From assembly GCA_965637545.1 (NCBI GenBank), contig OZ281498.1, forward strand, positions 434,001-498,000: a stretch of DNA of 64,000 bases, written 5' to 3'. A program made the position numbers. Positions 42,001 through 54,000 of the stretch are shown in pieces (position 1 is the first letter of the stretch; every line of letters starts with the position of its first letter). This DNA is from Phallusia mammillata. Taxonomy: Eukaryota.

Positions 42001-45000
42001 TAACGAAATAACTCTGTTAAAAAACGAGAAAAAAAAGGAAAATCAGCATGTTTGTAGCAGGAAAGAAAAATCAGCATGTTTGTAGCAGGAAAGAAAAATC
42101 AGCATGTTTGTAGCAGGAAAGAACAACTACATTTGTCTGTTTGTACGCATTGACGTAACAGTGGTTTAAGAGGTCATTCGCTTTTCACTCGTTTCAGCTC
42201 ATAAAAACTTGTTTATCGTTTCTTTATTTCTCAGGAATTGTTTGCGAAAATACGTTAAAAGCGAAGAAAATCTTGCGGCTGTTTTAAACATTTTTTAGTC
42301 CACATTAGGGCTGTTATCAAATAAAGGTTTTTAATTTTTCAAATAATCAAATAATTTTTTTCCCTTCAAATCAAATAATTCAAATAATTTAGAATACCGG
42401 ATGCATAAGGCCCAGAGTTATTATTAAAAAAAGGTGGTTGAAAAAAATCAAGGCTACATTTTTTTCTGTTTAAAATAATAATTAGTACAGATAGAGACCT
42501 GTTTCAATTAATCTCTGTAATTTTGCAAAAGCACATGAACATATTCAGTGTGTATTTTTACACCATTGCAACAGCTTTTTCTTGGATAATGGCTGAATTG
42601 AATTGTGATCTATACCATTTTAATCACTTGCATGAAAAACTTGAATTATTCCTGGGTGTAACTAATACCGGAATGAACAGTAAATTGTCATGCTTTTTTG
42701 TCTAATATTTTTGGGGGAAAGGGTAATGAAAATTAATGTAAAGCTGAAAACATATGTTTAAGTGCTTCTGTGTTACCGCAATTCCATAACAATGTCATCA
42801 ATGTGTTCAAATAAATTGATAATTTCAAACAATCAAATAATTATTTGTTTGATAACAGCCCTAGTCCACATGTTATCAACGAAATCTAATATCAGCGGGG
42901 ATTTAATGTTATTCATTAACTAATACATTGAAAACAACGTGATTTTGAAATTACTTTCGCTGCATCGACAGTGCCCGCTGCTTTCACTGTGATGTCACAA
43001 GCAGTGTTGTGACACCTAATGCGCAGTAACAGCAAGGGCTTTGTCACCTAACAGTGTGAAAGTTGTAATTTGTATCGAGCGATGACAAGGGCAGCGTTGA
43101 AAGTCACACGAGCGTGGAAGAAGTCTATATAAACCTGAGTGAGGGTTGTGGTAGCATTAGTCTAGTCGACTACAAGCAACTGTAAGGTAAGGTTTGTTTA
43201 CTAAGTGTTCTTAAAATGTAGAGAACACAGAATGTTTAAAAAGTTGATAAGATGGAAAACGCGCCGTGTAAAACAAGAAGCTTCAAATTCACAATTTTAA
43301 TCAGCAAAATAGTAAAAGCTTTCATATAAACGTTTGCTGTTATCAAGTTTATTGCGCAAGTTTGTTTATTTGGGATATGACATTGAACCTGTCAAGCAAC
43401 AGAGAGTAGAATGCTGTAGCAACACACCACAGTGTTTATCCTCTAAAGCAAACTTGACAGCATTTCACTATTACTAAGAATGGAAAGCATTTTCCAAGTT
43501 ACGAAATCCGTCAATGAATTAAATGGAATATAGATATTTCGCCTAATGGCATCATCAGTTCCTATAAAAACCACAAGATAATACATCAATAAAAGGAAAA
43601 GAAAAGTAAAAACACAACAAAACAAAGTGAGACGAAAACACTAAACTGAAAACAGAACACTACATTTCACTATTAAAAAGGTTTTAATCGATCTACAAAA
43701 TCTGTTTTCAAAAAAGTTTATTTCTTGCAGCTTAATTCAAAACCAAACATGGCAACATTCGATTACGAATCAGTTCGAGATGCTGCTCCTTATCTTCGGA
43801 TGACCCACGAGAAGATTCTGGAAAACCAAACCAAGAAACCCGATGGTAAGGAGAAAGTTTAAAGGAAAGCGTCGTCGTTTCAACAAAGTTTAAACAAATT
43901 ATTCAACGCAGGCAAGAAATACGTTTGGTTTCCCGACAAAGAGAATGCGTACGTTGTTGGTGAAATGATCAAGAACGAAGGTGGAAAATGTACGATCAAA
44001 TCAATAGATGCTGGAAAAGTAAGAACAATTTGACTGGTATAATGTAAATAGAAAACAAATCTATAAAGAAGATGTTGCTTTGCAGGAAATGACAGTGAAG
44101 GAAGATGACGTGCAAGAGATGAACCCGCCGAGATATGAAAAGTGTGAAGATATGGCAAACATGACTTTCCTCAACGAAGCGAGCGTTTTGAACAACTTGA
44201 GAACTCGTTACGAGTCTTTCATGATTTACGTAAGTTTCAATCCACGAAATGTAAAACAGTAAAACCGAAATGTTAATAAACGTAAAATTTGGTTCGCAGA
44301 CCTACTCTGGTCTCTTCTGTGTCACCGTGAATCCCTACAAGATGTTGCCTGTGTACGCTCCATACGTCATCTCTGCATACAAGGGCAAGCGACGAACTGA
44401 AATGCCTCCCCATCTTTATTCGATCGCCGACAACGCTTACGCCAACATGTTGATGAGTAAGTACCACAACAGAAGTTGAACCAAGTCACCTTTCAAATCT
44501 AAACTTTCTGTTTTCTTTTTAGACCGGGAAAATCAGTCCATGTTGATCACGTAAGTTCAAACCATGTCATGTTGTCGGTTGCTTTAATTGTTTTAATCCA
44601 ACATTTGTAAATTTTATCACTCGTATGTTCAGTGGCGAATCTGGAGCTGGAAAAACCGTTAACACGAAGAAAGTCATCCAATACTTTGCTTTGGTTGCTG
44701 CCTTCGGTGGAAAACAAGACGAATCCAAGGTGTGTTTCACAAAATCACAAAACATTCATACGGTCGCCATTGCAAAGATATGTTTTGTACACAGGGAACT
44801 CTCGAAGATCAAATTGTCCAGTGTAACCCGGCTATGGAAGCTTTCGGTAACGCAAAGACAGTCCGTAACGACAACTCTTCACGTTTCGTAAGTCGCATCG
44901 AGATATTAACGGATTGTTCCCGTGTTTGATACAAACGTTATTTGAACAGGGCAAGTTTATCCGAATTCACTTTGGGAGCACCGGAATGTTGGCATCAGGA

Positions 45001-51000: not shown

Positions 51001-54000
51001 TCGAACTTGTTTTGTTCAGCGAACGATCAAATCTTCTTCACACACAAAACACGGCTCTCATCAACCAGAAGCGAAAACTCGAAGGCGAACTGCAAACCAT
51101 GCAATCTGAAGTTGAGGAATCTGTTCAAGAACAGCGCAACGCTGAAGATAAGGCCAAGAAGGCGATCGTTGATGTAAGTTGGATTCTCATCGATTAAATC
51201 CGTTTATTTCGTTTGTTTAAATATTCCTCGATCATGTTTCAGGCTGCAACAATGGCAGAGGAATTGAAGAAAGAGCAAGACTTGTCTTCTCACTTGGAGA
51301 GAATGAAGAAGAACATGGAACAAACTGTGAAGGACCTGCAACAACGATTGGATGAAGCTGAGAACATCGCTCTGAAGGGAGGAAAGAAACAAGTGCAGAA
51401 ACTTGAGACAAGAGTAAGTGCTTGTGCTTGTTGATTCACAGCAAGCGTTGTCGGACGCTCATTGTTATTTTACTTCCAGATTCGCGAACTTGAGAACGAG
51501 CTTGACTCTGAACAACGACGCAACGGTGATTCGGTGAAATCGCAACGTAAACTTGAACGCAAGTTGAAGGAGATTACTTACCAAGGTGAAGAAGATAAGA
51601 AGAATCTCACCAGAATCCAGGATCTTGTTGACAAACTACAAATCAAGGTCAAGACATACAAGAGACAAGCTGAGGAGGCTGTAAGTAAAAGTAGTTTAAC
51701 CGACACACGCCCTTTCATTCTAACACAATGCGTTTGATTGACAGGAGGAGCAAGCAAACACAAATTTGAGCAAGTACAGAAAACTTCAACATGAACTTGA
51801 CGATGCTGAGGAGAGAGCTGAGATGGCAGAGTCTGCTCTCAACAAGATGAGATCTAAAGCAAGAGATGTGAAGGTGCAAATTGAACACAAAAGTTTTCTT
51901 TAGGTTAAACTGAATGCTTTCAATAAATATATCAACTTTTTTCCCAGAACTAGTTTCGAGCGGAAATCGGAAACCTACTCTGACGAATGCCTCAACTTTG
52001 TTTACTGTTTACGTTTTACTATCTTTCTTACTTGCATGAATAAAATATTACAATCAACACAATCTGTTGTGCGAATTAATATTCCAGGCAAAATACAGCA
52101 TATTGGCTAGGAGCAAACAGACAACTATCAGATACAGAGCAGAGTACATATGACTCGTAAAAAGTTAGTGTTAAGGCAACTAAGGTTATGTGCGAAAGAG
52201 GTACAAAACCCAAATACATGGAATTGCAAAAGGAGCACCAAATATGGTTGCTCATTTGATTGTGAACAGAGCAAACTTTTGTGTACATTACAAAAAAGGT
52301 ACATGAATAAATTTTAAATACATGTGCGGAGCTGTTGTTTGGCAACATTGTAACATCAATTATCACTTTCAATGGAACGACTCCCTGAAGATGTTATCCT
52401 CTGTCGTATTGATTCATGTGATAGTTTTCTAACGAAAAGATGAAACACATTATGTCCACAAACAGAAATAGGCCCACCCTAACATCACTATAACTTGACT
52501 TCGAAAATAATACCTTCGTAGTTGAAACTAAATAGTTGATATTCTAATTGTATATTAAAGTTTAATGTACATTACATAGCAATCATTAAAACAACATGAC
52601 AATAAAATGTTTTAAATGGGAGCAGCTAATTGTTTTCGGTTCACACGTTTTCAACCAACTAAAAGCCACAACCAAGCAAAAAGTACTGAGAGTCATGATA
52701 TCTCAACTATATAATACATAGATGTTCAGGTGCAGAGTTCAAAGTCAAAGTTTGGCTACTTTGAAAAACACTTTACCTGTTTTTGTACAACTTCACTTCA
52801 TCATCACGAACAAGTGGAAGTAGAAGAAGATTTGTTTCCGGATCTTCCACACATCTTTTAATAAGTTCCAAATATGTCAAGTTCTCATTTGTATTGGGGT
52901 CCAAAAATCCCTTGGTGTCATCACTTGGGTCATCTAAAGTCTGGTGAAGCCGTTCATCAAATAAACCTTTGAATATCAACAAACACAGAAATCTAGAACA
53001 ATTCACCGAGACAAACCAGGAAAATACAAAAAAGACGTAACTAAGAATTGTAAATTTTGAAATATGCACAACATTAGCACTTAAAAATGTTTATGTGAAC
53101 ATGAGTAATTACTTGTGACACTTACCTCGCTCAAATGCAACCTCTACTGGCAATCGATGATTAGCAACCGGATCAATGATGCCTCCGGTGGCGATTTGTG
53201 CTTCCAGCAATCGAATTCCATGGTTCTCAACAATCAGCCCCTACACCAATATAAGCACAACAATAATTAAACGTATATAATTCCCAATAAGTAACATTTT
53301 GTCCTGCATCGATAAAAAAGTTAAATAGAAAAGACTCACTCTTTTCATTGCTTGAAACAAAGACAACTTTTCATCAGACCCACGTGGAGTGTAACCGGTA
53401 ACAGCTCGCTGAGCACGCACCAAAACTGCTGCAAATGCTCGATCGAGTAAGTTGTGTTCAAGTGCCTCCTCTACTGACATCTTATCGTCAGTTATCGGAT
53501 CAATAATACTCCCGACAGCTGCTTGAGCTTCAAGCAAGCTCAATGCGGTACCTGAAAACATCCAAGGCAAAATTAGGCAAAACAACAGTAAATAAGTTTA
53601 GTGGTTGACTGTGAAAAATACAACCATGATCAGATTTGTAAGCTATAGTTCTCAGAAATGTACAGTACATACAAAATGTAACAGTTAGCTCAGAAATAAA
53701 GAGACATATACAGACATGTACAGTGCATACAAAATGGTACAGTAAACATAGAAATGTACAGTTCTCTTAGAAATAAACAGTGTGTCGCAAACAGAATTGT
53801 ACTGTACACAGACATGTAATATATATACAAAAATGTACAGTATTTTCAAAAAGTAAAGTAAGCACAGAAATTCATACCTCTAGAAATAATTCGCTGTTTG
53901 TGTGCGTCAAATAAAGACATCTTTTGCCCAGTTTGGTCATTAAATATTCCTGCAATTGGATATTGGCCAATCAGGAAAGGTCTCAGCTCTCTTTCCACCT

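What the first reader, a model, noticed from the sequence alone, without database searches (positions are those of the whole stretch)
43126..52044. Inverted myosin paralog: homogenised body with private promoter, 5' exon and terminal exon
Seen: similarity to copies 1-3 starts at the ATG (43749) and stops at ~51873, with introns in between near-identical. The promoter, non-coding exon 1, 544-nt 5'-UTR intron, last intron, last exon and 3' UTR are unrelated. Inference: this is an old paralog with its own expression programme whose protein is kept almost identical by conversion, giving essentially one motor under two regulatory systems. The two ~8-kb inverted arms around an ~8.7-kb spacer could also invert the spacer.
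Basis: partly seen in the sequence, partly recalled or inferred. Interest (0 to 1): 0.72.

Follow-up and report, generated by a model that had tools for sequence, protein, structure and literature searches.

The report
Inverted myosin paralog homogenised by conversion
A sea-squirt muscle myosin gene lies head-to-head with three tandem copies and is kept almost identical to them from start codon to near the stop by repeated copying between genes, while its promoter and ends are unrelated: a clear but familiar kind of gene-family evolution.

Summary
The window holds three tandem sarcomeric myosin heavy-chain genes on the minus strand and a fourth, inverted copy (c4) on the plus strand. c4 is 96.8-97.2% identical to them over 43748-51867.

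Similarity starts 1 nt before the ATG and ends 6 nt before the donor of coding exon 37. Outside those points the flanks align no better than shuffled sequence.

All four copies are intact: 37 coding exons, and 144 of 144 GT-AG intron ends. Only 8 of 1926 codons vary, 5 of them private to c4. Copy 1 matches a Phallusia mammillata protein record exactly, exon by exon.

Both gene types share one architecture, yet their flanks are unalignable. Variant sites form a clustered mosaic in which c4's nearest copy alternates. Repeated interlocus gene conversion between old paralogs fits this best.

The two promoters carry different motif sets, but expression and spacer inversion could not be tested. This is a new member of a known kind, comparable to the Drosophila Hsp70 and Amy palindromic pairs. 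It bears on a question a 2025 preprint left open for ascidian Myh genes.

The parts
2644..35376 (-). Tandem array of three MHC genes (units 2644-14623, 14624-26633, 26634-35376). The third unit ends with its promoter.
   Evidence: Self-blastn. Unit alignment: intergenic DNA of units 1 and 2 differs at 20 of 3206 sites (0.62%).
2932..11061 (-). Copy 1 (c1) homogenised body, from the -1 C before the ATG to codon 1924.
   Evidence: All 37 of 37 exon peptides are exact substrings of P0232, Phallusia mammillata CAB3264110.1.
14912..23063 (-). Copy 2 (c2) homogenised body.
   Evidence: 36 of 37 exon peptides are exact in P0232 (E1731K private). 20-nt deletion in intron 30.
26922..35053 (-). Copy 3 (c3) homogenised body, head-to-head with c4.
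   Evidence: 35 of 37 exon peptides are exact in P0232 (H1533Q and H1654Q private).
2732..2925 (-). c1 private 3' end. Last intron 2815-2925 (111 nt), last exon GAG TAA (2809-2814), AATAAA at 2732-2737. The equivalents in c2 and c3 are nearly identical.
   Evidence: Alignment. The tail ...ARDHK|E* equals the C-terminus of P0232.
35054..35376 (-). c3 private 5' end and promoter, shared only with c1 and c2. 20-nt 5'UTR (35053-35072), intron 35073-35189, short non-coding exon 1, TATAAA at 35256-35261, CAGCTG at about 35301, TGACG at about 35309, 35332 and 35352.
   Evidence: c1 and c3 differ at 15 of 323 sites and by a 25-nt indel in this stretch.
35054..43747 (.). Unaligned spacer of 8,694 nt between the two inverted arms. 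It contains both promoters.
   Evidence: 16 stop-to-stop frames of 70 aa or more listed; none recognised by eye as coding; none searched; no tRNA; no Rfam hit; 180-nt x 2.3 and 28-nt x 3.2 tandem repeats.
43010..43111 (+). Cluster of four T-box-like half-sites just upstream of the c4 TATA box (sites starting at 43010, 43042, 43054, 43104).
   Evidence: Window-wide background is 0.03-0.18 sites per 461 nt for these patterns. The motif definitions are recalled, not taken from a call.
43126..43186 (+). c4 TATATAAA (43126-43133) and predicted non-coding exon 1, ending at the donor AAG|GTAAGG (GT at 43187).
   Evidence: Sequence. The transcription start site is not determined.
43187..43730 (+). Predicted 544-nt 5'-UTR intron of c4, or an outron if the mRNA is SL trans-spliced.
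   Evidence: 31% GC. No similarity to c1-c3.
43731..43748 (+). 18-nt private 5'UTR of c4 between the acceptor and the ATG.
43749..51873 (+). c4 coding exons 1-37 (1926 codons) with 36 introns of 55-82 nt. Homogenised with c1-c3 over 43748-51867.
   Evidence: (every intron has a zero-indel GT-AG solution against P0010).
44243..44276 (+). Intron 3 patch: 7 sites where c1 = c4 and c2 = c3.
45349..45372 (+). Intron 10 patch: 6 sites where c1 = c4 and c2 = c3.
47206..47410 (+). Intron 19 plus exon 20 (first IQ / lever-arm region). This is the most diverged patch of c4: 17 of 68 sites and 8 of 137 sites against c1. It includes V786I and M793L.
51874..51947 (+). Predicted private last intron of c4 (74 nt, GTGCAA...CCCAG).
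   Evidence: Alternative reading: no splice, read-through ...VQIEHKSFL*, with AATAAA at 51922-51927.
51948..52044 (+). Predicted private terminal exon of c4 (AAC TAG, i.e. N then stop) and 3'UTR up to AATAAA at 52039-52044.
   Evidence: It has the same layout as in c1-c3 (one codon, a stop, then about 75-90 nt to AATAAA).

Best explanation
What it is. The window is from the ascidian Phallusia mammillata or a very close relative. It carries four intact genes for one sarcomeric (class II) myosin heavy chain. Three lie in a young tandem array. The fourth (c4) is head-to-head with the last array member.

Origin (inferred). c4 is an old paralog. Its promoter, 5'UTR exon and intron, last intron, one-codon terminal exon and 3'UTR have drifted beyond recognition from those of the array genes, but they keep the same layout.

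Mechanism. Strong purifying selection on the protein kept the exons of old paralogs alike; about 93% amino-acid identity holds even between ascidian genera. That gave homologous recombination a substrate. Repeated short-tract interlocus gene conversion, starting in exons and running through the 55-82-nt introns, has homogenised everything between the first and last stretch of retained homology: the ATG and codon 1924. Conversion stops there because the flanks offer no homology.

The same process also moves divergent patches between family members, probably including copies outside the window. The genes are therefore mosaics.

The result is nearly one protein (5 private residues plus the tail residue) expressed from two unrelated promoters.

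Status of each step. Shown: the boundaries, the intactness, the mosaic, the shared architecture and the different promoter motifs. Inferred: the age of the paralog, that c4 is expressed, and any difference in expression.
For: 1. Boundaries and flanks. Identity of 97% runs from -1 of the ATG to 6 nt before the exon-37 donor. The flanks are at chance level.

2. Same architecture with unrelated sequence.
- TATA box, then a strong donor about 55-70 nt downstream.
- A 5'UTR intron of 117 nt in c3 (about 25 nt longer in c1 and c2, from the indel) or 544 nt in c4.
- An acceptor 20 or 18 nt before the ATG.
- A last intron (111 or 74 nt) at the same phase-0 position.
- A terminal exon of one codon plus a stop, then AATAAA about 75-90 nt on.
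A random insertion of a gene body would not find these parts.

3. Mosaic pattern.
- 347 ungapped variable sites. The patterns are: c4-private 111, c3-private 79, c1c2|c3c4 68, c1-private 30, c2-private 29, c1c4|c2c3 22, c1c3|c2c4 6, multi-state 2.
- Patterns are clustered: 148 adjacent identical pairs against 72.3 +/- 7.1; 0 of 10,000 shuffles reach 148.
- The incompatible sites sit in intron-sized patches (44243-44276 and 45349-45372).
- c4's nearest copy changes along the gene: c1 at introns 3 and 10, c3 at introns 11, 12, 27 and 28, c1/c2 at introns 14 and 20-22, c2 at exons 31-32.
- Per-intron divergence is over-dispersed: c1-c4 chi-square 116 with 35 df, p = 1e-10, ranging from 0 of 58 sites to 17 of 68.

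4. c4 is no further from the array genes than c3 is from c1 and c2. Intron divergence is 5.8-6.4% against 4.9-5.6%.

5. Variation is imported. c1 and c2 differ by 2.4% in introns but by 0.62% in intergenic DNA.

6. Selection. The c4-c1 comparison gives 75 synonymous and 5 non-synonymous codon differences. There are no stops or exon indels in any copy, and 144 of 144 splice-site pairs are intact.

7. The exon model and the spliced tail of the array type are validated by a named protein record. P0232 (1927 aa, ending ...ARDHKE) contains all 37 c1 exon peptides.

8. Paralogs cluster by species in three genera: 5-61 amino-acid differences within a species against 129-161 between genera.
Against: - No genome of another ascidian could be searched. 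It is therefore not shown that a gene with c4's flanks predates the similarity of the bodies. 'Old' rests on the unalignable flanks and the shared architecture.
- No transcript evidence for c4. 0 of 12 members of the 90% protein cluster carry its private residues or tail. Its first and last exons are predicted from signals only, and a read-through ending with its own AATAAA is possible.
- The short mosaic patches (10-300 nt) are about the size that short-read polishing across 97%-identical repeats could scramble. I cannot check reads.
- The homogenised introns show no clear GC enrichment: 34.9% against 28-31% in the private introns and 37% in the spacer. There is thus no independent signature of biased conversion.
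Confidence: 0.74

Rival explanations
1. One recent event. An 8.1-kb gene body was copied once, by a single long conversion or template switch, into an older MHC paralog (or the reverse). The copies have since diverged independently, with no ongoing exchange.
For: The boundaries are sharp, and identity does not decline toward the edges. Overall divergence of c4 from each array copy is similar, at 5.8-6.4% in introns.
Against: - Independent divergence predicts Poisson-like differences and one constant nearest relative.
- Observed instead: over-dispersion (p = 1e-10), clustered patterns (0 of 10,000 shuffles), 28 tree-incompatible sites in patches, and an alternating nearest neighbour.
- The array genes' introns are more diverged than their intergenic DNA. 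Independent divergence cannot give that.
Confidence: 0.12
2. Assembly or polishing artefact. The four copies and their private flanks are real, but the fine mosaic of shared patches, and perhaps the copy number of the tandem array, comes from mis-assigned reads or haplotype mixing in a highly heterozygous genome.
For: The patch sizes of 10-300 nt resemble short-read lengths. Ascidians are very polymorphic (recalled). Divergence between copies (1-6%) is in the range of allelic divergence.
Against: - There are no N gaps.
- Three units join seamlessly with a regular period.
- c1 matches an independent protein record at 8 of 8 variable codons and in 37 of 37 exon peptides, while c2, c3 and c4 each miss at their own private sites.
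- All 144 splice-site pairs and all four reading frames are intact.
Confidence: 0.08
3. c4 is a silent or decaying copy. It is kept looking intact only because conversion from the expressed array genes keeps overwriting it. There would then be no second regulatory system.
For: No c4-type protein record (0 of 12 cluster members). Its expression is untested.
Against: - c4 keeps a TATA box, a consensus donor and acceptor pair, a cluster of four T-box-like sites, an in-frame terminal codon with a stop, and a poly(A) signal. All of these lie in the parts that conversion cannot reach.
- Its private coding changes are conservative (D321N, M610L, V786I, M793L, H1925V).
Confidence: 0.1

Closest known systems
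Drosophila palindromic paralog pairs Hsp70Aa/Ab, Hsp70Ba/Bb and Amy-p/Amy-d (review PMC3924832, passages read)
   Same: Tightly linked paralogs in mirror-image orientation. Paralogs within a species are more alike than orthologs between species. For Amy, concerted evolution is confined to the coding sequence while the flanks evolve independently. The review gives purifying selection on a conserved protein as the reason conversion can persist.
   Different: Here the arm is an 8.1-kb gene of 37 coding exons, and 36 short introns are homogenised along with the exons. One arm belongs to a three-copy tandem array. The exchange involves four or more copies, and the boundaries fall at the ATG and 2 codons before the last splice donor.
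Ascidian Myh-Scp_Ta paralogs that cluster by species (bioRxiv 10.64898/2025.12.09.693291; abstract, section 14 and passages read)
   Same: The same gene family and the same pattern. The preprint reports 5-7 near-identical paralogs per ascidian species with identical intron organisation. It states that gene conversion 'cannot be excluded'.
   Different: The preprint works from protein trees and leaves open the choice between recent duplication and conversion. This window adds the nucleotide-level evidence (private flanks, mosaic) for one species. I did not place these genes in Ta or Tb by a tree of my own.
Gene conversion among vertebrate and fish sarcomeric MYH genes (McGuigan 2004, seen only as cited by the preprint; the rest is recalled)
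   Same: Tandemly clustered MYH genes with conversion between coding regions, and isoform-specific 3' ends and UTRs (the latter recalled).
   Different: As I recall them, vertebrate MYH genes are 20-30 kb with longer introns, and conversion tracts there are local. Here virtually the whole gene including introns is homogenised, and the partner is inverted.
Ascidian muscle actin genes HrMA4a and HrMA1a/b (mentioned in PMC3074122, passages read; their head-to-head arrangement and cluster homogeneity are recalled)
   Same: Larval-muscle structural genes of ascidians in multi-copy clusters with TATA promoters and near-identical coding regions.
   Different: A different gene family with much smaller genes. 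I saw no statement about conversion boundaries in the passages I read.
Interlocus conversion in Caenorhabditis paralogs (PMC3966223; abstract seen in the listing)
   Same: The abstract describes conversion as having the dual effect of homogenising paralogs while raising variation within each gene. That matches the excess of intron over intergenic divergence found here.
   Different: It is a genome-wide survey, not this family or this arrangement.

Membership tests
Class II sarcomeric myosin heavy chain | Myosin N-terminal SH3-like domain, myosin head (motor) and long coiled-coil tail | tested here: met
   Pfam. P0232, which contains all 37 c1 exon peptides, matches Myosin_head (934 bits), Myosin_tail_1 (525 bits) and Myosin_N (48 bits). 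c4 exons 14 and 15, tested alone, match Myosin_head; exon 24 matches Myosin_tail_1; exon 20, tested alone, matched no family. 37 of 37 c4 exon peptides align to ascidian MHC proteins. c4 was tested exon by exon only.
Class II sarcomeric myosin heavy chain | Intact reading frame and conserved exon-intron structure | tested here: met
   1926 codons in 37 exons with no indel against C. intestinalis XP_002119856.2. No stops or exon gaps in any of the 4 copies. 144 of 144 GT-AG pairs are intact.
Tunicate Myh-Scp_Ta subfamily (expanded, tail-muscle type) | Placement in the Ta clade of the preprint's tree | not tested
   The preprint's locus tables are supplements (closed), and I had no labelled Ta or Tb sequences. 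The multi-copy, near-identical state fits its description of Ta.
Concerted evolution by interlocus gene conversion | Homogenised tract bounded by unrelated flanks in copies that share gene architecture | tested here: met
Concerted evolution by interlocus gene conversion | Mosaic of clustered, phylogenetically incompatible shared variants (several tracts) | tested here: met
   Caveat: the assembly could not be checked against reads.
Concerted evolution by interlocus gene conversion | Paralogs within a species closer than orthologs between species | tested here: met
   One search gives 8 variable codons among the four window copies. One search gives 5-61 amino-acid differences within C. intestinalis or Clavelina and 129-161 between genera. 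This feature alone does not exclude recent duplications.
Concerted evolution by interlocus gene conversion | The duplication predates speciation (orthologous flanks in a sister species) | not testable with these tools
No ascidian genomic DNA was reachable.
Inverted-repeat (NAHR) inversion system | Long, highly identical inverted arms with long exact matches | tested here: met
   The arms are 8.1 kb at about 97% identity. The longest exact runs are 290 nt (c3-c4) and 461 nt (c2-c4), with 6 runs of 200 nt or more in each c4 pair.
Inverted-repeat (NAHR) inversion system | Both spacer orientations observed | not testable with these tools
   There are no reads and no second assembly.

The most novel reading that the evidence does not exclude
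The c3/c4 head-to-head pair is a recombination-active palindrome with two consequences.

(a) Crossovers inside the identical bodies flip the 8.7-kb spacer. That re-pairs each promoter with the other gene's terminal exon and 3'UTR, so the two orientations segregate in populations as near-neutral regulatory shuffles.

(b) Conversion is held off by selection at one module, the intron 19 / exon 20 patch that encodes the first IQ (light-chain-binding) part of the lever arm. This is c4's most diverged patch. A Ciona intestinalis paralog also concentrates differences there: 6 of its 61 differences fall at residues 771-798.

The T-box-type promoter and the CRE/E-box-type promoter would then deliver the same motor with slightly different necks, at different times in tail-muscle development.
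Probability: 0.12. Interest if true: 0.55.

Novelty: new member of a known kind. Interest (0 to 1): 0.38.

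Why it matters
Ascidian tail-muscle myosin genes cluster by species in protein trees. A 2025 preprint (10.64898/2025.12.09.693291, section 14) reads this as recent, species-specific duplication but says conversion cannot be excluded. This locus gives nucleotide-level evidence for conversion in one species: a paralog with unrelated regulatory and terminal parts whose 8.1-kb body, introns included, is a mosaic shared with an adjacent tandem array.

If that is general, copy-number histories and 'bursts of duplication' inferred from Myh protein trees in tunicates are partly artefacts of concerted evolution. 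Orthology should then be assigned from the flanks.

The locus also offers a compact natural experiment: the same protein under two different small promoters, testable by electroporation in ascidian embryos. The phenomenon itself, concerted evolution confined to the coding body of inverted or tandem paralogs, is textbook.

Tried and rejected
Ideas tested and set aside.
- Retrogene origin of c4: rejected, because all 36 introns are present.
- Extra MHC fragments or pseudo-exons in the spacer or flanks: none. 0 of 510 tblastn HSPs fall outside the four genes.
- Structured RNAs or tRNAs in the spacer: none.
- GC-biased conversion signature: inconclusive.
- SL trans-splicing of the 5' end instead of a cis-spliced exon 1. 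This is possible in tunicates; the Ciona TnI outron is 459 nt (PMC3074122, passages). I think it less likely because both gene types have a consensus donor about 55-70 nt after a TATA box. Either way the 5' end is private.
- A c4-type protein record: not found among 12 of 12 members of the 90% cluster.
- The private c4 residues compared with other ascidians gave no clear ancestral or derived pattern.

Literature. Six searches found no paper showing conversion at an ascidian Myh locus. These were: myosin heavy chain + ascidian + gene conversion (3 papers); Ciona + myosin heavy chain + tandem + larval muscle (2 papers); myosin heavy chain + gene conversion + concerted evolution (6 papers, none on MYH evolution); Phallusia + myosin heavy chain (8 papers); ascidian + muscle actin + gene cluster + gene conversion; and the Ciona Myh paralog search. 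Subscription journals are not covered.

Not done.
All searches of the model were exon by exon.
- Structure prediction, complex prediction, the protein atlas and the representative-protein search were not used; they would not bear on the question.
- Genome contigs was not scanned because it holds only bacteria and archaea.
No other ascidian genome was compared, so the orthology of the flanks stays unchecked.
- The preprint's supplementary locus tables, which may list the P. mammillata Myh loci, were closed.
- The window is ascidian, not human.

Full report
**What is in the window.** The 64-kb window has no N. Self-comparison shows a tandem unit of about 12 kb present 2.7 times (2644-14623, 14624-26633, 26634-35376). 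It also shows one inverted segment, 43748-51867, that is 96.8-97.2% identical to 2932-11061, 14912-23063 and 26922-35053. Translated exons hit ascidian sarcomeric myosin heavy chains.

A listing of the 90%-identity cluster around the best Ciona hit contained a Phallusia mammillata record, CAB3264110.1 (P0232, 1927 aa). All 37 exon peptides of copy 1 are exact substrings of it. The counts are 36 of 37 for copy 2, 35 of 37 for copy 3 and 33 of 37 for copy 4. P0232 also carries copy 1's residue at all 8 variable codons. The window is therefore from P. mammillata or something very close to it. It is not human.

Other genes on the minus strand downstream of c4 are a plectin-repeat gene, a chitin-binding (CBM_14) gene and a GH18 chitinase.

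**Gene model.** I built the model from ungapped tblastn anchors against C. intestinalis XP_002119856.2 (P0010) and a search for GT-AG pairs that keep frame and residue count. Every one of the 36 introns has a zero-indel solution with good splice signals.

Copy 4 has 37 coding exons from 43749 to 51873 (1926 codons) and introns of 55-82 nt. In the four-way alignment no copy has a gap in an exon or a stop codon. All 144 donor/acceptor pairs are GT-AG. Pfam confirms the myosin domains on P0232 and on three of the four c4 exons tested alone (exons 14, 15 and 24; exon 20 alone matched no family).

**The observation.** At the 5' end the four copies agree from the C before the ATG. The 18-20 nt back to the upstream splice acceptor already differ.

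At the 3' end identity runs to 51867. Codon 1925 then differs at all three bases (His in copies 1-3, Val in c4). AAG|GT is shared, and the rest is unalignable.

Local alignment of 700 nt upstream and 400 nt downstream of c4 against copies 1 and 3 scores no better than shuffled sequence: 76, 96, 127 and 106 of 200 shuffles reach the observed score. The copy 1 against copy 3 controls score above 500.

- TATATAAA at 43126
- donor at 43187
- acceptor at 43730, giving a 544-nt intron
- AATAAA at 52039-52044
- an unaligned spacer of 8,694 nt

The first and last exons of c4 remain predictions from sequence signals.

**Old paralog or fresh copy?** The private parts of the two gene types are unrelated in sequence but identical in layout:
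- a TATA box
- a consensus donor about 55-70 nt downstream
- a 5'UTR intron (117 nt in c3; 544 nt in c4)
- an acceptor 20 or 18 nt before the ATG
- a last intron (111 or 74 nt) at the same phase-0 position
- a terminal exon holding a single codon and the stop (E* or N*)
- a poly(A) signal about 75-90 nt further on

The array-type tail ...ARDHK|E is confirmed by P0232. A gene body dropped at a random place would not find such parts. The flanks of c4 must therefore descend from a homologous MHC gene and have diverged beyond alignment, while the introns of the body differ by only about 6%. That discrepancy is the core argument for homogenisation of an old paralog. I could not test it against another species' genome.

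**One event or many?** Among 347 ungapped variable sites, 111 are private to c4, 79 to c3, 30 to c1 and 29 to c2. A further 68 split c1c2|c3c4, 22 split c1c4|c2c3, 6 split c1c3|c2c4, and 2 have more than two states.

The patterns are strongly clustered: 148 adjacent identical pairs against 72.3 +/- 7.1 expected, reached by 0 of 10,000 shuffles. The tree-incompatible sites sit in intron-sized patches, such as 7 sites in intron 3 and 6 sites in intron 10 where c1 = c4 and c2 = c3.

Feature by feature, the copy nearest to c4 alternates among c1, c2 and c3. Divergence per intron ranges from 0 to 25% and is far from Poisson (c1-c4 chi-square 116, 35 df, p = 1e-10).

c4 is no more distant from the array genes (5.8-6.4% in introns, 1.4-1.5% in exons) than c3 is from c1 and c2 (4.9-5.6% and 1.2%). 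This is what repeated short-tract exchange in a pool of copies gives. It is not what a single copy event followed by independent drift gives.

**Conversion also imports variation.** The intergenic DNA of tandem units 1 and 2 differs at 0.62% (20 of 3206 sites), so the array is young. The introns inside those same two genes differ by 2.4%, and c3 carries private patches of 16-20% (introns 20, 22 and 28). These patches cannot have arisen in place in a young array. They were most likely brought in from more divergent family members, including c4 and probably copies outside the window. The preprint counts 5-7 such genes per ascidian species.

**The protein.** Only 8 of 1926 codons vary among the four copies. 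Five changes are private to c4 (D321N, M610L, V786I, M793L, H1925V), plus the tail residue. Between c4 and c1 there are 75 synonymous and 5 non-synonymous codon differences. 'Essentially one motor' is a fair description.

The most diverged patch of c4 is intron 19 plus exon 20 (17 of 68 and 8 of 137 sites). It encodes the first IQ region and holds two of the five private residues. One C. intestinalis paralog also concentrates differences at residues 771-798 (6 of its 61 differences). I record this as a lead, not a result.

**Regulation.** Within about 120 nt upstream of its TATA box, c4 has four T-box-like half-sites and neither TGACG nor CAGCTG. The array promoters have three TGACG half-sites and a CAGCTG E-box within about 100 nt, and no T-box-like site. 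The window background for these patterns is 0.03-1 per 461 nt. The motif definitions are recalled.

According to passages of the review PMC6589888, Tbx6-r, Mrf and CRE-like sites are all features of Ciona tail-muscle structural gene promoters. The same review says Mhc4-6 are tail-muscle genes, Mhc2 is cardiac and Mhc3 is body-wall. A preprint (10.1101/2024.08.27.610013, passages) reports six MHC genes among larval muscle-specific genes. It also reports that the mix of Tbx6-r.b, Mrf, Tbx15/18/22 and Snai sites sets timing.

My reading is that the two promoter types more likely differ in timing or level within larval muscle than in tissue. This is inference only. No c4-type protein record exists in the cluster I could list (0 of 12).

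**Inversion.** The arms are long and similar enough for homologous recombination. Exact runs reach 290 nt for c3-c4 and 461 nt for c2-c4. A crossover within the bodies would invert the spacer together with both promoters and the 5' gene parts. That would join each promoter to the other gene's terminal exon and 3'UTR and leave two intact genes. The review PMC3924832 (passages) discusses this property of palindromic paralogs. Whether it happens here cannot be told without reads.

**Comparison with what is known.** The closest described cases are the Drosophila palindromic pairs Hsp70Aa/Ab and Amy-p/Amy-d. For Amy, concerted evolution is confined to the coding sequence and the flanks evolve independently (PMC3924832). 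Conversion among MYH genes in fish is cited by the tunicate Myh preprint (McGuigan 2004, seen only as a citation).

That preprint (section 14) notes that ascidian Myh-Scp_Ta paralogs cluster by species. It says conversion cannot be excluded. Six literature searches found no paper that shows conversion at an ascidian Myh locus. So this is a new, well-resolved member of a known kind, and it bears on that open point.

**Caveats.** I had no reads, no RNA and no second ascidian genome. The fine mosaic could in part be a polishing artefact, although copy 1's exact match to an independent protein record argues for a sound assembly. Supplementary tables of the preprint, which may list the P. mammillata loci, were closed.

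**Verdict.** Observation confirmed. Interpretation partly supported: conversion of an old paralog is supported, while separate expression and inversion are untested. Novelty: a new member of a known kind. Interest 0.38.

Noticed in passing
window 11410-14623 and 23411-26633, compared with the gene bodies: Intergenic DNA of the tandem units is 99.4% identical (20 of 3206 sites differ). Introns inside the same genes differ by 2.4-5.6%, so the bodies carry more variation than their surroundings. This points to import of patches by conversion from more divergent copies, probably some outside the window.
   Followed up: partly
window 47206-47410 (c4 intron 19 and exon 20); C. intestinalis XP_078491260 residues 771-798: The lever-arm / first-IQ exon is c4's most diverged patch and holds 2 of its 5 private residues. 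One Ciona paralog also concentrates differences in the same 28 residues (6 of 61). This may be a module kept paralog-specific against conversion.
   Followed up: partly
window 26922-35053 (c3), introns 20, 22 and 28: c3 has private intron patches: 13 of 69 and 13 of 66 sites in introns 20 and 22. In intron 28 it groups with c4 against c1 and c2 (about 11 of 68 sites). This is so although c3's 3' flank differs from that of c2 at only 1 of 288 sites.
   Followed up: partly
c2 intron 30 (aligned to c4 50153-50213), and the c3 5'UTR intron near 35100-35190: c2 has a 20-nt deletion in intron 30. c3 has a 25-nt deletion in the 5'UTR intron and promoter-proximal stretch relative to c1 and c2.
   Followed up: no
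window 51874-51953: c4 has two possible endings. One splices to a one-codon terminal exon (N then stop at 51948-51953). The other reads through to ...VQIEHKSFL*, with an AATAAA at 51922-51927 inside the putative intron.
   Followed up: partly
window 38577-38991 and 42034-42123: The spacer holds a 180-nt tandem repeat (2.3 copies, 75% matches) and a 28-nt repeat (3.2 copies, 98% matches).
   Followed up: no
window 52776-53597 (-), 58249-59155 (-), 62126-63493 (-), 764-1090 (+): Neighbouring genes: a plectin-repeat protein 3' of c4 and convergent with it, a CBM_14 chitin-binding protein with a Thr/Pro-rich stretch, a GH18 chitinase, and a weak sub-threshold DUF7492 match (25.2 bits against a curated cut-off of 27) at the left end.
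   Followed up: partly
proteins P0228 and P0009 (Clavelina lepadiformis XP_076804949 and XP_076804948): These two Clavelina MHC proteins have consecutive accession numbers, come from the same 25.7-Mb contig, and differ at only 5 of 1928 residues. This suggests the same near-identical multi-copy state in an aplousobranch ascidian.
   Followed up: no
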